Shown: in pieces, positions 18,001 to 33,000 of the stretch | How the letters are laid out: the number at the start of each line of letters is the position of its first letter | How positions within the stretch are numbered: position 1 is the first letter of the stretch | Assembly: GCA_965285935.1 (NCBI GenBank) | Contig: OZ260661.1 | Span: 87,792,001 to 87,856,000, forward strand | DNA from: Ophelia neglecta | Lineage: Eukaryota | DNA: 64,000 bases | Reading direction: 5' to 3' | Position numbers: made by a program

Positions 18001-21000
18001 TTGACTAATTGAAGTTGACAAAAGATATGTCATCTCCCAAACTGACCTTGGCATGATTTACCGAAAGACCAAAGAAGGTGACTTTCAAAATCGGAACCCA
18101 AAAGTGCCAGTTGAGTTTTATTATTTTCATGAAGGTCATCAAGTTTTATCTTCACGGTTCTTTGCAGGTTACATAGCTTTACGCTATGGTTGAAGGTAAA
18201 ACCGATGTTTTGCGATTTCAGCAGCCTACCCTTTTGAACATACAAAATTGCTGAGAAAGTTACCTCAGATACATTTCTCATAGAGTTTTGATATTGACTT
18301 TGTACTTTTCAGTCATACACATCATGAAAATTAAAAGCATACAAGTTTGTCCCGGATGTGAAACTGCCGCCTAAGCAAAGCCCTCTCTGAGTCAGCAGGT
18401 CAGGGCATATAACTTGTTTAGGCTGATTCTTTCCTTTGCGATAATGATGAGCTTTTAGCCCCAAGTTGTTCATGCAGCTATGTAAGTTTTATCGGCGTTG
18501 TCGTGTTTTATTTTTACTGATAGCAAGTCTGAAAGGAAATTTATGCATGTGTTTGCAAGTCGATCCCCACGAGTAGCTGTCCCTCGGTCAGATACTCTTT
18601 AAGACCCGTGATGACTCCATGATCCATGGCTCCCGCCTACAAAACCAACAACTTTATAGATATACAAAGCGTCTAAATGCAGTTGCCAAATTATGTGGAT
18701 GCCATATATACAAGTTCTTCTTTTATGCAGTTGTTTTACTATATATATTGCATCAACAAACAGCCTTTTATCTGGACCCAAGTTCTTAAAAAAAGAGTAG
18801 CATCAGTTATTTGCGTTGGTTGCCTCCATAGTCACCTATGAGATATCATTATGAAACGTCACAATTGACACCCATCCTTGAAACCTTTCAAGTGGGACTT
18901 ACAGTTTGATTGTTATTGAGCAATTTTTCATGTATTGTGATATAACATTTTTTGAACGCCTTATCGTCGATTGGCATTTCGTCCACCAAGCTACACGATT
19001 GACTCAGAAACATGTACAATTATATCTCCCTAAGGGAAGGAGATGGCGGGAATATCCGTCTGTTACTGTGTTATGCCCTTTTCTTCTTAAGTAATTTTTC
19101 AAGCCTAGCTTTCAGTAAAAGAACAGATACATCGCAGCGGCACAAACATTTTATTTTCGGCAGCTACCACGTCTGGCATTTGGCCATGTAAAACCTGAAG
19201 GTTCTGGTGAAAAGGTTATATTCCTACCTGGCTGGTACGCTAATGTAATCCAGAGATTGCCGTGTAGTTAGTTGTCAGATTTTTCAGTAAAAGCGGGCAG
19301 TTAATTGAATTTATCGCACTAAGCAAGCAACAACAACCCAGGAAATTAAGATAAAATAATCAATGAAAAATGGTTTCATCTAAAACTTCGACATAATAGC
19401 TTTAATATTGCCTAAATTTTCCTAATAGTGTCCTTGGATGTTACTTATGGGGTATTAGTTGAGTATTGGGATTGACTGTGTACCATTGATATACAGATAT
19501 GCTCAGTAAGTTTCTTGGTATCCTGGGAATGCACACTATGGGTGTGCCCTCATCAGTTCAGCTAAAGTCTCCCAACAGCAATTTGCCAATATCCCTTCAC
19601 TGACAGACGTTCCCTGCATTTCATTTACTAGACATATAGCCCCACATGGTCCCAATCGCCCTCGGCTTTGTAATTATATACTGGAGTAAATGAATGGATA
19701 TTTTTCTCGTAATGTTCTGGGGCTCCCTCCATACACATTTTTCTTCTATACAGTCTACAATACAGTATATATATATATTATATATATTATGCATATATAT
19801 ATAACTAAGTTTATATATCACAATAAAAAGGAATTAGAAAGCTTGAATTTTGTAGAGGGCTATGTGAAAGAGTCGTTGTTCCCAAAGAATTTGTCTTCTT
19901 CATATAGGCCTACTTTCCCACATTAATGAGTTGTCTTCATTCGCCGGATATTCCAAGTAATCACTTATAGTCATCAAAAGAGAAATACATTATTAAGATG
20001 ACAATGTTCTTTATATGTTTTATTTTATATTTTATTTATCCGCTTTCCCTTTTGAGAGTTTAGATAGTTTTTATCTTTATATAAGGACACATACCCTATT
20101 ATTACTCAGACAGGTGTTTTTGGACAAGTATCTCACTCTAATCGGACCCTTATTATATTGTTTGTGTAACTGATTAAGATAGAAATCTAAATTATTTTCT
20201 ACCCATCTGCTGTATAGTCAGTTCAATGGCCATAGTTCTTAAAAGTCTTCTACAACGAACTTACATGATTATAAAGGCAAGGCTCCTCAACAATCTTATA
20301 CCTGCGAGACATGATTGGCTCGGTTTATCTAAGTGCAAGCAGATATCATTGTTTAAAGTAAGCACGGTGCACTGGGTCTTACTTCACTAAATATAAGATA
20401 TCATTAAATGGCAAAAAATGTATTATTGTTATTTCGGTGGTTCTAGATTACATCAGATAGCCATACTATAGATTCGGTTTAAACGTTAGTTTGAAAATGT
20501 ACAAGCCTTTCAGTTTACACTTCGGCCGTGAAACTAGATGATTGGTGAAAGGGGTACATAAAGTGAAAATGTTAAGGACAAGTGTATGACATTCACCAGA
20601 GCATTAAGATTGAAGATTTATGTTTTGATGAAACCTTGTCATCTACAAACAATCATTTCCCAGAATTTTGTGTTTTATAAAGATCAGTTTTTTCCTCATT
20701 ATTGTTTCTTGTAAGGAGGTACTTAAATGTTGAGCTTAAATGTTTTTTTCTTTTGCAGGAATATATGAAAAAGATTTCCAGAGAAGAGATCACACAGAAA
20801 AAGATGGCAGGAACTAAAGGAGAGGAGATGCTGTATAAGCGGGAGAGTAAAATGGGGGTGACCACTTTCACCTTCCAGAGCAGACGGTACATGTTCCCTT
20901 CAGTGATCGTCAAGGGGGATCCAAACACTTCAGAGGGCGACTGTGTCATGCTGGATGTCGGCCTATTCTGTCCCCACTGTAGCCGCGCCGTGTCAGGAAA

Positions 21001-30000: not shown

Positions 30001-33000
30001 CGAGGAGAAGTACGAGCCTCAGGGATATTTGGAAGACTCCTCAGAGTCGGACAGTGAAACTTCTAGTTCATCATCCTCGTCGTCATCTAACACCGATTCG
30101 AACGACGAACAAATGCTTGTGAGACAATGTAACAATACCTTTCGTGAAAAATGCGACGGGAAAATTCAGTTGGAGTCTGTTCGGTCAGAACAGCAGCCAT
30201 TCTGGGACTCTGTTTTTGGGGTAAGTGGGGCGAGGGCATCCCAGAGTAGCTCCAATGCTGACAATTCAGATGATGATCCAGCTGATCTAGTTTTAAGTAA
30301 TCCTGCATTAGTGGCACTTTCTAGACTTCCAGATGACATGGAATCTGTAAGCACAAGCACGCATGAGGAAAGTATGAGCCCAGGAAAAAGTGACGAGGAA
30401 AAAGAGGAACGAGGAAGGGAATCGCTTTCGTATGAGGAGATTTTACCTCACATTCTGTCCCAGGAATCCGAACATTTACAAGGAGAGATATCCACCATGT
30501 ATTTCGCGCCTATTCGCGATGACAGGAGTGATGATTCTGATATTGGAGCACATGTGAAACCAGTCATCAAAGCAGAAGGAGAACATATTGAAGCCCGCTA
30601 CGAGGCTCTACCGTATCTCAAGGAAACAGCTTTGCTTGATGACAGTACGGAGGAGGAGGAAACGGTCGAAACCAAACATAAAGGTAAATTCCGTAACAAA
30701 GACCCCTTATTGTTGGGCGCAGGATCATCATCAGAGTCAGATTCAGACATTGAACAGTTAAAGTCATTTCTCCAGTCGTATTCATGTCATATCGAGCCAA
30801 GTGGATGCCGTCCACGTTCATGTCCCCCTATAAGCCTCAGCCCAAATTTTTGTCTCCCCTACTCACCTCAGCCTGATCCTGGCATGGCACGAGAACAGCT
30901 TGACTTAGATAGTCTTGTTCATGGCCAGTCTGCTGTGCATGACAAATTATCCCGTGTTACGTATGCCTTTGATAAATTGTTAGACGAAATAAAATGCGTA
31001 AAGGACCAATTTGAAGCTATTCAATCTAAGAAGACCAAAAGACGATGGTCTGCAAATTTAGAGGAGCTTTACCTCTTAAAGAACAGGACGTTGGAGTTAC
31101 AGGGAGATGTCCAGCATGTTTCCAGACAACTAGATTTCAAACTCAATCGTGTTAAACCTTTTGGTGGCTCCAGTGAGGATTTCACATCAACCTATCAACA
31201 CACCGACGGAAGTGTTCCGCGTAGCCGAAGCTCGTCAGGAGGGCGTCGAGTCCAGTTTCTGGGAGAGGATCAGGTACAAAAGTTCCCATCTGAATGTATG
31301 GGGTTGTCTCAGATTGGGGGAAATAACAGCGCCTTCCGCGCCTTCACAAGGACAGACAGGGGAGAACTAGACTCGTTCTCCTATGGTTCGCGGAGTGAAG
31401 AGAGAATTGTTAGGTTAAATTCAAAAGATTCAAACGGATGTCATCCACCAGGAAGGCACCACTACTCCGATCAGGATCTACGTCTGAGTGATCTGAGGCG
31501 ATTCTACCACGGCGAACGTCCCCACCAACTGTCATCTCAACAGCAGACTAGAGGGTCTCGAACCTCACGTACCAGATTACGGACGAACAAGGATGGCGAT
31601 ACTTGGGGAGAAGAGCTTTCGGATGACGAGGGACACGTAAGAGGCCATTATGATCCTTCTAGACTGAGAAAGAAATTCGTTAGATCTAGATCGCTGAGTG
31701 ACGATAACAAACCTGTCAGAGCCAGACGATACAGAAGTAGATTTTACAGAAAGCATATTGATTACTCTTTTTAAGTTAGACGCTTTTAGTAAACACGGTG
31801 TTCAATTCATATCATACGGAAGCCTCTCGTCACTCTTCACGGATCTTTGCTCTGCGGTTTGGAGGACTTTGGTGTGGTAGTGTGAGCTTCGCTACTATGA
31901 AAATAAAACCTGCTGGATGCGCTGCATTAGAATATTAATAGTAGAGAACAACATTCTTTTTTGGGTGTCTGTTAATGTTGCTCTTTCTTATTCCGCTCCT
32001 AAGGCTTAAAGTTCATTCAACTTATACAACTAGTTGATATTCGTTGGAAGTTGGTCTTTAAGATGGTACTCGCTATGTATATGCTGTTTAATGTGCTTCG
32101 TTTGTAACCACCATTCTGAACCGGGTTCACCTGTAAAAACACCGCTCCTCCTGACATTGTTATAATGTACTGCTTTGTTTTATGCATTAATGGGTTTTAG
32201 TGGTACGATTCTGTTTTGACACGATGTGGTGTGTGTATTCTTGCTAAACTAACATTTTTCCACTCGCACTGCGCATGTTAAGGAAGATTTGCATCACCAC
32301 AATATCTCGTGCCTTAATCCTAACATCCCCCAGACAGGTAGAAACCATAGCACATGACCATCAAAGTTCAAACTTTAGCAGCTTTTCCTTAGAGGACCCC
32401 TGAGCCTCAGAGCAGGTACCGAATCGGAAGCTGGAATCGGACGCGTAATTCGCAGCCGGCTGAATTTATCAGCACAGCAGCAACTGTGGTTCATGTCCTA
32501 TGGTTTCCATCTCCGTTATCAACCCATGTCCTTCTCAGTCACTTCATTGAAAGGTAGCTTATTTATACGACTGACTCTGGCTCGAATTCAGTACTCCATA
32601 TTAGTGGGTTTTCTCTTACTAAGCGGTTAATTATGAACATAACTTTCTTACTATATGCCCGAGCTTCTGTTCACATTGCACAGCTGAGTTTTCTTACTAT
32701 AGCAGCACCTAATAACAGTGTCCCTTTTTCATTTCAGAAGAATGGTGCTGAAGATAAACCAAGACCTTGAACAAATTAGTATTTCCTCGTATAGGTTGTC
32801 ACTATGGCTAAACGGCATGCATCATGTGATTTAGTCCCATCACTCTTTCCACCAATCAGCGAAGAGGTTATATTGACCAATCAGAAGCGAGAGCATGAAT
32901 AACATCCAATAAACATTTACTAGAAATATGTTAACAAAGGATTTGATTAACATTCTAAATTTATGGTGCTAATGAGGCACATTGGAAACGTTAATTAGTG

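What the first reader, a model, noticed from the sequence alone, without database searches (positions are those of the whole stretch)
20759..31774. 11-kb giant exon encoding a ~3,670-aa disordered protein with no recognisable domain
Seen: one intron-free ORF of 11 kb with a clean acceptor, whereas the neighbouring genes have exons of ~70-900 bp. Known: giant low-complexity exons typify neuronal/muscle scaffolds such as giant ankyrins, MAP1B/futsch, piccolo and AKAPs, often as isoform-specific exons. Inference: this is either a near single-exon orphan scaffold gene (ATG 20765) or a giant alternative terminal exon of a gene whose conserved domains lie upstream of the window.
Basis: partly seen in the sequence, partly recalled or inferred. 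Interest (0 to 1): 0.7.

Follow-up and report, generated by a model that had tools for sequence, protein, structure and literature searches.

The report
Giant single-exon disordered scaffold gene
This is a real 11-kb protein-coding exon that holds the whole coding sequence of a 3,656-residue, acidic, mostly disordered protein; the family has only three detectable relatives (the one named is from an annelid worm) and no known function.

Summary
The open frame is real: 3,697 stop-free codons at 20681-31774 (+). The next longest in the window is 336 codons, and the chance probability is about 1e-98. It has no tandem or internal repeats and no Pfam, PDB or Atlas match.

It is conserved. One unnamed 3,802-aa protein is colinear from residue 30 to the identical C-terminal tail at 45% identity. 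Two 2,850-2,900-aa proteins, one a Paralvinella palmiformis (annelid) "hypothetical protein", share the N-terminal third. Both start at the Met that aligns with the second ATG (20804, good Kozak context).

The best model is therefore a complete CDS in one exon, 20804-31774. The AG at 20757-58 would then be at most a 5'UTR acceptor.

AlphaFold2 gives pLDDT below 50 for 2,183 of 2,400 modelled residues. The exceptions are short conserved helices and one confident 68-residue C-terminal helix.

All four proteins keep, in the same order, a helix with the hydrophobic pattern of PKA-anchoring (AKAP) helices. This is a lead and was not tested.

Verdict: a lineage-restricted giant disordered scaffold. 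Its function is inferred, and there is no transcript evidence.

The parts
20681..31774 (+). Stop-to-stop open reading frame, 3,697 codons plus the stop
   Evidence: There are 0 stops in this frame against 93-339 in the other five frames over the same span.
20741..20758 (+). Polypyrimidine tract plus CAG. It is a candidate 3' splice acceptor (AG at 20757-58) and, if used, probably joins a 5'UTR exon.
   Evidence: Sequence read. Its use is untested because there are no transcript data.
20765..20767 (+). First in-frame ATG (T at -3). The 13 codons after it have no counterpart in any homolog.
20804..31774 (+). Proposed complete CDS: 3,656 codons plus TAA. The start ATG at 20804 has A at -3 and G at +4.
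   Evidence: P0003 and P0004 start at the aligned Met. P0002 ends on the same C-terminal tail. Coordinates were checked.
20804..21061 (+). N-terminal conserved module (residues 1-86): a predicted beta-hairpin followed by an invariant CVMLDVGLFCP.C cysteine motif
   Evidence: 48-51% identity to P0003 and P0004 with E of 1e-23 to 2e-24. Invariant columns are listed. The hairpin at residues 5-30 has pLDDT of about 50.
20804..24316 (+). N-terminal third (residues 1-1171), the only part with significant similarity to the two distant homologs. It consists of short conserved blocks separated by variable acidic, Ser-rich linkers.
   Evidence: BLASTP HSPs; blocks shown.
23744..23794 (+). Conserved amphipathic helix (residues 981-997), 94% identical in P0002 and also kept in P0004
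24137..24298 (+). Conserved block TTQE.T.V..WPKK ... P.R..HL.RV...D.D..V.E (residues 1112-1165), present in all four proteins. A strand is predicted at residues 1116-1125.
27383..27469 (+). Helix C..L..E..I..(K/R)LKE (residues 2194-2222), recognisable in all four proteins and always upstream of the AKAP-pattern helix
27635..27700 (+). Amphipathic helix (residues 2278-2299) with the AKAP hydrophobic pattern at 8 of 8 positions, conserved in P0002
28937..28999 (+). Amphipathic helix (residues 2712-2732), 8 of 8 pattern positions, 63% identical in P0002
29333..29386 (+). AKAP-pattern helix (residues 2844-2861). In the same register all four proteins have x-A at positions 1-2, and 8 of 8 (P0002, P0004) or 7 of 8 (this protein, P0003) hydrophobic residues at positions 2, 5, 6, 9, 10, 13, 14 and 17. 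P0003 and P0004 begin with F-A.
   Evidence: The residues are predicted helical but at low pLDDT.
30926..31129 (+). C-terminal 68-residue helix (residues 3375-3442), the only confidently modelled element and a candidate coiled coil
   Evidence: pLDDT 76-94. 66% identical in P0002. There is a weak sub-threshold Pfam LRRFIP (coiled-coil) similarity: E 0.0073, 16.1 bits against a cut-off of 28.2.
31244..31258 (+). RRVQF (residues 3481-3485), which matches the RVxF-type PP1-docking pattern
   Evidence: Kept as RRVRF in P0002, that is in 1 of 3 homologs. Shuffled sequences give 2.3 pattern matches on average, so the evidence is weak.
31601..31771 (+). Basic C-terminal tail. Its last 19 residues are 89% identical in P0002, and P0004 has a similar RR..RF.RKH ending.
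31902..31907 (+). AATAAA, 128 nt after the stop codon; a candidate poly(A) signal
   Evidence: Its use is untested.

Best explanation
SHOWN. 20681-31774 is a genuine protein-coding frame kept open under selection. Its product belongs to a small family of 2,850-3,800-residue proteins that match no described domain family.

WELL SUPPORTED. The whole CDS lies in this one exon: ATG 20804 to TAA 31772-74, 3,656 aa. If the AG at 20757-58 is used, it joins a non-coding leader.

INFERRED MECHANISM. The protein is an intracellular, strongly acidic, Ser-rich chain that is mostly intrinsically disordered and acts as a multivalent docking scaffold. Function sits in short conserved islands, which are isolated helices, a beta-hairpin and a cysteine motif at the N-terminus, strung on fast-evolving linkers. 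A long C-terminal helix and a basic tail probably serve self-association or targeting.

MOST SPECIFIC CANDIDATE ACTIVITY (about 0.2 on its own). One or several amphipathic helices anchor the regulatory-subunit dimer of cAMP-dependent protein kinase, as AKAP helices do. A PP1-type RVxF site near the C-terminus may act alongside. The protein would then be a giant lineage-restricted kinase/phosphatase anchoring platform.
For: Reality of the frame: 3,697 codons against 336 for the next longest. P is about 1e-98, with 93-339 stops in the other frames. There are no tandem repeats and no internal repeats.

Conservation: P0002 (3,802 aa) is colinear with 45% identity overall, from residue 30 to the shared C-terminus. 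P0003 and P0004 match residues 1-86 and about 345-1171, with E from 1e-15 to 3e-45.

Start and end: 2 of 3 homologs start at the Met aligned with ATG 20804. That ATG has A at -3 and G at +4. The C-terminus is shared with P0002. AATAAA lies 128 nt downstream.

Disorder: composition and charge. pLDDT is below 50 for 2,183 of 2,400 modelled residues.

Islands: predicted secondary-structure elements are 60.6% identical to P0002 against 45.4% elsewhere. Only 4 of 2,000 circular shifts reach that difference.

Intracellular location: there is no hydrophobic N-terminus and no TM-like window.

AKAP lead: windows that are hydrophobic at all 8 positions named for AKAP helices (section 5 of PMC12083921, passages read) number 3, 3, 1 and 2 in the four proteins. 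Shuffles give about 0.1 each and reach the observed count in 0, 2, 25 and 6 of 300. One such helix lies in the same register in all four, with Ala at position 2 and F-A at positions 1-2 in two of them. It always lies downstream of the same C..E..KLKE helix.

RRVQF is kept as RRVRF in P0002.
Against: There is no transcript evidence of any kind, so the exon boundaries, the start codon and expression itself are unverified.

P0002's model starts 29 residues after the proposed start. The AG at 20757-58 is in phase with the open frame, so an upstream coding exon is not excluded. The homologs' starts may simply be the first ATG chosen by a gene caller.

Low pLDDT could partly reflect the 4-row alignment rather than disorder.

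The AKAP reading rests on a degenerate pattern that any amphipathic helix with 3-4 spacing can satisfy, and residue shuffling is a lenient control. In P0003 the count is not unusual: 25 of 300 shuffles reach it at 8 of 8, and 112 of 300 at 7 of 8. Pfam returned no family, AKAP or RII-binding families included, up to E 10 on the four helix peptides or on the 500-aa pieces.

The C-terminal two thirds, where most of these helices lie, show no significant similarity to P0003 or P0004.

The RVxF match is at chance frequency and is absent in 2 of 3 homologs.
Confidence: 0.55

Rival explanations
1. This is a giant terminal (possibly alternative) exon of a larger gene. Coding exons upstream of the window, or within its first 20 kb, splice in phase into 20759, and the conserved domains lie there.
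For: There is a strong polypyrimidine-CAG acceptor in phase 0 with the frame. P0002's model lacks the MAG opening. About 20 kb upstream holds no recognisable gene and could be an intron.
Against: 2 of 3 homologs begin at the Met aligned with ATG 20804, and none of the 3 carries extra N-terminal sequence. That ATG has a good Kozak context. 10 of the 25 upstream frames of 90 codons or more gave 0 Pfam families. The best upstream + strand codon score is 0.183 per codon against the frame's mean of 0.327; this is a weak test and misses short exons.
Confidence: 0.15
2. This is a nuclear or nucleolar acidic phosphoprotein or chromatin scaffold, not a cytoplasmic kinase anchor. Acidic Ser clusters would bind basic proteins such as histones, and basic clusters would serve as nuclear localisation signals.
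For: Acidic residues make up 18.6% and the net charge is -285, with long Ser/Asp/Glu runs. There are several Lys/Arg clusters and a basic C-terminal tail.
Against: No nuclear-protein domain or family match was found. The basic clusters were not tested as NLSs. This reading does not account for the conserved amphipathic helices or the N-terminal Cys motif.
Confidence: 0.15
3. This is a cytoskeleton-associated linker resembling a microtubule-associated protein. The basic C-terminal tail and long helix would bind filaments, and the acidic projection domain would act as a spacer.
For: The architecture is an acidic projection followed by a basic C-terminus with a long C-terminal helix.
Against: There are no tubulin-binding repeats and no MAP1, MAP2/tau or ankyrin domains. 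Nothing specific points to filaments.
Confidence: 0.1
4. This is not a functional gene: a chance open frame, a repeat artefact, a transposon or virus polyprotein, or a dead gene.
For: The protein has no known domain, and no expression data are available.
Against: P is about 1e-98. There are no repeats. There are no RT, integrase or capsid matches. An ortholog of similar length is colinear over about 3,600 residues at 45% identity and has the same end.
Confidence: 0.01

Closest known systems
Hypothetical protein LSH36_610g01028 of Paralvinella palmiformis (P0003), plus the unnamed records P0002 (ENA) and P0004 (Logan)
   Same: They share the opening MAG..YKRESK..TT and the invariant CVMLDVGLFCP.C motif. 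The order of conserved blocks through about residue 1171 is the same (DWTSDY, TSSCE, Y.SSSEC, TTQE.T.V..WPKK, HL.RV). All are giant and lack Pfam domains.
   Different: P0003 and P0004 are about 800 residues shorter and share no significant similarity beyond the N-terminal third. None of them is characterised.
A-kinase anchoring proteins with several anchoring helices (AKAP220/AKAP11, SKIP/SPHKAP)
   Same: It is a large scaffold with more than one amphipathic helix that is hydrophobic at positions 2, 5, 6, 9, 10, 13, 14 and 17. Two homologs have the F-A dipeptide that PMC12083921 describes as an RI-anchoring determinant (passages). That AKAP220 also binds PP1 is recalled and comes from no call.
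   Different: There is no sequence similarity to any AKAP Pfam family. PMC12083921 (section 4) dates the dual-helix AKAPs to the base of vertebrates. This protein is twice their size and far more acidic. Binding is untested.
Giant-exon neuronal and muscle scaffolds: giant ankyrin-B/G, MAP1B/futsch, piccolo
   Same: Each has a single very large exon encoding a long, disordered, low-hydrophobicity stretch. For giant ankyrin I saw only the search listing and abstracts. The others are recalled.
   Different: In those proteins the giant exon is inserted among folded domains such as ANK repeats, ZU5, PDZ and C2. Here no folded domain is detectable and the exon appears to hold the whole CDS.

Membership tests
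AKAP (functional class) | A 14-18 residue amphipathic helix that is hydrophobic at positions 2, 5, 6, 9, 10, 13, 14 and 17 (section 5 of PMC12083921) | tested here: met
   Windows with 8 of 8 positions number 3, 3, 1 and 2 in the four proteins, against about 0.1 in shuffles. One helix is in register in all four. The pattern is degenerate, so meeting it is necessary but not sufficient.
AKAP (functional class) | Direct binding of that helix to the docking/dimerisation domain of PKA RI or RII | not testable with these tools
   No eukaryotic PKA R-subunit sequence could be obtained, and no binding assay is possible.
AKAP sequence families in Pfam (RII_binding_1, AKAP_110 and others; names recalled) | A match to the family HMM at or above the gathering score | tested here: not met
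   No family of any kind was returned at E up to 10 for the four helix peptides. Among the 10 pieces of 500 aa, no AKAP or RII-binding family was listed, and every listed family was below its cut-off.
Giant ankyrin, MAP1B/futsch, piccolo | The family's folded domains: ANK repeats/ZU5/death, the MAP1 domains, or piccolo zinc fingers/PDZ/C2 | tested here: not met
   Pfam found none in the frame and none in 10 of the 25 upstream open frames. Exons outside the window cannot be seen.
PP1-interacting proteins (RVxF class) | A conserved [RK]-x(0,1)-[VI]-{P}-[FW] docking motif (pattern recalled) | tested here: inconclusive
   RRVQF at residues 3481-3485 is kept in 1 of 3 homologs. The pattern gave 5 overlapping matches (4 sites) in the protein against 2.3 in shuffles.
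LRRFIP coiled-coil family (PF09738) | A Pfam match at or above the gathering score | tested here: not met
   16.1 bits against a cut-off of 28.2, E 0.0073, over the long C-terminal helix only.
The P0002/P0003/P0004 family (undescribed) | The N-terminal module MAG..YKRESK..TT followed by CVMLDVGLFCP.C, with colinear conserved blocks to about residue 1171 | tested here: met

The most novel reading that the evidence does not exclude
This is a lineage-restricted giant AKAP found so far only in annelid-like records. It would be a 3,656-residue disordered platform encoded by a single exon that anchors several PKA holoenzymes through three to six amphipathic helices. In some lineages these would be RI-type F-A helices. 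It would also carry a PP1 docking site, an N-terminal Cys motif for targeting, and a C-terminal helix for self-association. It would be an independently evolved counterpart of the vertebrate multi-helix AKAPs.
Probability: 0.15. Interest if true: 0.6.

Novelty: new member of a known kind. Interest (0 to 1): 0.35.

Why it matters
Giant disordered proteins are routinely broken up or mis-started by gene callers and are left as "hypothetical". This case gives a clean gene model, with the whole CDS in one 10,971-nt exon and a corrected start. It also gives a map of the few short islands that selection keeps across four distant sequences.

If the conserved amphipathic helices do anchor PKA, the protein would be an invertebrate-lineage AKAP of unprecedented size. 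It would show that multi-helix kinase anchoring arose outside vertebrates, where the AKAP survey I read places the main expansion (section 4 of PMC12083921).

If they do not, the protein remains an ordinary lineage-restricted scaffold of unknown role.

Tried and rejected
Domain and structure look-ups:
- Pfam on the whole protein and on 10 pieces gave only sub-threshold noise: PBC, 2H-SAK, ISPD_C, TAF, LRRFIP and others.
- PDB sequence searches with one sequence and with the 4-row profile gave 0 hits.
- The Atlas gave no usable hit for the C-terminal 480 aa. For the N-terminal 100 aa it gave only scores of 0.81 or less, which shuffled proteins reach a third of the time.
- Rfam gave 0 matches in the window.
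- Fold search was not run because both models are too low in confidence for the matches to mean anything.

Homolog searches:
It found only P0002 among 1.84 billion representatives.
- A profile search for shorter relatives (30-1,564 aa) scored 8,000 candidates and found none.

Self-association: a job folding two copies of residues 3356-3456 (the long helix) returned 'no answer' (score 0.12, mark 0.32). It counts neither for nor against self-association.

AKAP and PP1 motifs:
- Pfam on the four AKAP-pattern peptides gave 0 families.
- A looser RII-binding regular expression, recalled from memory and not taken from a call, gave 11, 5, 4 and 4 hits against 1.4-1.8 in shuffles. I replaced it with the 8-position pattern taken from the paper.
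- RVxF as evidence for PP1 docking was downgraded to chance level.

Other readings considered and rejected:
- A secreted acidic matrix protein was rejected because there is no signal-peptide-like N-terminus.
- A transposon or virus polyprotein was rejected because there are no such domains.

Literature: a full-text search for the N-terminal motif found 0 papers.

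
Full report
NUMBERING AND SCOPE

Residues are numbered from the ATG at 20804 (3,656 aa) unless stated otherwise. The window holds no N. Its CpG observed/expected ratio is 0.77, far above the strong CpG depletion of vertebrate genomes (a recalled figure). The only named relative of the protein is from an annelid. I therefore take the window for an invertebrate animal and not for human sequence.

The gene under study is a single exon, and neighbouring candidate exons were searched one by one.

THE OBSERVATION

The frame is there. It runs stop-to-stop from 20681 to 31774 on the + strand, 3,697 codons. 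It is one of only three frames of 250 codons or more in the window; the others are 336 and 251 codons.

Over the same span the other five frames carry 192, 339, 178, 93 and 180 stops. With the stop-triplet frequency seen outside the frame (0.059), the chance of 3,697 open codons is about 1e-98.

Repeats do not explain the open frame. Tandem Repeats Finder found none in 20000-32500, and a self-BLASTP found only the identity match.

- A T-rich tract followed by CAG|G ends at 20758.
- The first ATG is at 20765.
- An in-frame TAA lies at 20678-80.
- The stop is TAA at 31772-74.
- AATAAA follows at 31902-07.

IS IT A GENE, AND WHERE DOES IT START AND END?

Homolog searches found three relatives:
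- A whole-length word-index search (lengths 2,017-6,421 aa) found one relative among 5,735 candidates. This is P0002, 3,802 aa, from ENA and unnamed.
- P0002 is colinear with the frame at 45% identity overall. Islands of 60-90% identity alternate with stretches of 20-35%. It ends on the same residues.
- A denser search with residues 30-530 of the 3,669-aa reading found 3 proteins among 5,370 candidates. They are P0002, P0003 (2,904 aa, NCBI 'hypothetical protein LSH36_610g01028 [Paralvinella palmiformis]') and P0004 (2,847 aa, Logan, unnamed).

P0003 and P0004 both begin with MAG..GTE..YKRESK.G.TT. This aligns residue for residue with the window's second ATG at 20804. That ATG has A at -3 and G at +4, whereas the ATG at 20765 has T at -3. 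The 13 codons between the two ATGs have no counterpart in any homolog.

P0002's model starts at the Met aligned with residue 30, so 2 of 3 homologs support the 20804 start.

Upstream of the frame I found no sign of coding exons:
- 10 of the 25 open frames of 90 codons or more in 1-20680 gave 0 Pfam families.
- No + strand open stretch of 40 codons or more reaches the giant frame's mean codon log-odds. The best is 0.183 per codon against a mean of 0.327 and a minimum of 0.061. This is a weak test that short exons would escape.

I conclude that the CDS is most likely complete within this exon. The acceptor, if used, joins a 5'UTR exon. Without transcripts this remains a model.

WHAT THE PROTEIN LOOKS LIKE

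Composition (3,669-aa reading): S 13.0%, E 10.8%, D 7.8%, W 0.3% and C 1.4%. Acidic residues are 18.6% and basic 10.8%, giving a net charge of -285. Mean hydropathy is negative in every 100-residue window. No 19-residue window is hydrophobic enough for a membrane span. The N-terminus is not signal-peptide-like.

No known domain or structure matches:
- Pfam gives nothing above any curated cut-off on the whole protein or on 10 overlapping 500-aa pieces.
- The three homologs carry no precomputed Pfam domain.
- PDB sequence and profile searches found 0 hits.
- The Atlas gave nothing usable.

AlphaFold2 was run with 4-row alignments on two 1,200-residue segments:
- Residues 1-1200: mean pLDDT 33.6, with 1,070 residues below 50.
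- Residues 2457-3656: mean pLDDT 35.5, with 1,113 residues below 50.

The models contain a beta-hairpin at residues 5-30, about 25 isolated helices and one confident element. That element is a single 68-residue helix at residues 3375-3442 with pLDDT 76-94.

Predicted elements are more conserved than the rest. They are 60.6% identical to P0002 against 45.4% elsewhere, and only 4 of 2,000 circular shifts reach that difference.

The shallow alignments may depress pLDDT. Together with the composition, though, the picture is a long disordered chain carrying short conserved docking elements.

FAMILY ARCHITECTURE

Local BLASTP limits the significant similarity with P0003 and P0004 to the N-terminal third:
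- Against P0003: residues 1-84, 345-760 and 967-1171.
- Against P0004: residues 1-86 and 439-1170.

The blocks kept in all four proteins are:
- the N-terminal module with the invariant CVMLDVGLFCP.C motif;
- an acidic LIEELL-type helix;
- a block of the form R S . S P ... GD.TL.R.F;
- DWTSDY, TSSCE and Y.SSSEC;
- a helix at residues 981-997, which is degenerate in P0003;
- TTQE.T.V..WPKK followed by P.R..HL.RV...D.D..V.E.

Further on, only two short elements can be recognised in all four, and always in the same order. The first is a C..E..I..(K/R)LKE helix, at residue 2194 in this protein. The second, downstream of it, is an amphipathic helix at residue 2844.

HOW IT MOST LIKELY WORKS

What is shown: the frame is real, it is conserved, it has no known domain, and it has a pattern of conserved islands.

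What is inferred: the protein is a multivalent intracellular scaffold.

The most specific lead is PKA anchoring. The AKAP survey PMC12083921 (passages and sections 4-5 read) describes anchoring helices as 14-18 residues with conserved hydrophobic side chains at positions 2, 5, 6, 9, 10, 13, 14 and 17. It describes an F/Y-A dipeptide at positions 1-2 as a determinant for RI anchoring.

Windows meeting all eight positions, with no Pro or inner Gly, number 3, 3, 1 and 2 in the window's protein, P0002, P0003 and P0004. Shuffles give about 0.1 each and reach the observed count in 0, 2, 25 and 6 of 300.

The helix at residue 2844 and its counterparts share one register. Ala is at position 2 in all four, and F-A is at positions 1-2 in P0003 and P0004.

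Against this reading:
- The pattern is satisfied by many amphipathic helices.
- Residue shuffling is a lenient control.
- P0003's count is unremarkable.
- Pfam returned no AKAP or RII-binding family.
- I could not bring a PKA regulatory subunit into the session to test docking.

I put this sub-claim at about 0.2.

An RVxF-type RRVQF at residues 3481-3485 is kept in P0002 only. The pattern occurs at chance frequency: 5 overlapping matches (4 sites) against 2.3 in shuffles.

RIVALS

A terminal exon of a larger gene (0.15), a nuclear acidic phosphoprotein (0.15) and a cytoskeletal linker (0.1) are not excluded. Non-gene explanations are excluded.

COMPARISON WITH WHAT IS KNOWN

For giant ankyrins I saw only the listing and abstracts. 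The other examples are recalled.

It fails the membership test for each of those families, because none of their folded domains is present.

Its only relatives are uncharacterised predictions. A full-text search for the N-terminal motif found 0 papers. I did not search the literature for the family in any other way.

WHAT STAYED UNCHECKED

- Transcript evidence of any kind.
- The genomic loci of the three homologs.
- Cluster membership and source names (unavailable).
- An exhaustive profile search with the conserved N-terminal third.
- Homologs of 1,565-2,016 residues or more than 6,421 residues. The profile search for shorter proteins (30-1,564 aa) scored 8,000 candidates and found none.
- The supplements of PMC12083921.

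VERDICT

The object is a new, lineage-restricted member of the general class of giant disordered scaffold proteins. Its function is unknown, and the one testable lead is PKA anchoring. Interest is moderate to low (0.35).

Noticed in passing
window 1-941: A 20-nt satellite (consensus CTGTGAGTATGAGAGAGGCT, 46.8 copies, 81% matches) runs off the 5' end of the window. It produces the spurious 100-251-codon open frames on the - strand.
   Followed up: partly
window 61903-63486 (-): This is a beta-1,4-galactosyltransferase-like gene. The open frame 61903-62388 matches Pfam Glyco_transf_7N at E 8e-45. The two open frames upstream of it on that strand (62477-63001 and 63172-63486) gave no Pfam hit. 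The exons were searched singly and not joined.
   Followed up: partly
window 39411-39716 (-) and 56048-56380 (+): Two Cys-containing candidate exons on opposite strands are paralogous: 38% identity over 89 residues, E 1e-18. Neither has a Pfam match at E 0.01 or below. They suggest an inverted pair of related, probably extracellular, genes downstream of the giant gene.
   Followed up: partly
window 44039-45049 (-): This 336-codon open frame is rich in Thr, Ser, Asn and Pro and has many N-x-T/S sites, so it looks like a mucin-type exon. It has no Pfam match.
   Followed up: no
window 35909-36468: A long trinucleotide-type low-complexity tract is read as poly-Thr, poly-Pro, poly-His or poly-Gly depending on the frame. 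It produces several overlapping spurious open frames on both strands.
   Followed up: no
window 8630-8897: A 133-nt unit is present in two 99%-identical tandem copies within the otherwise featureless 20 kb upstream of the giant exon.
   Followed up: no
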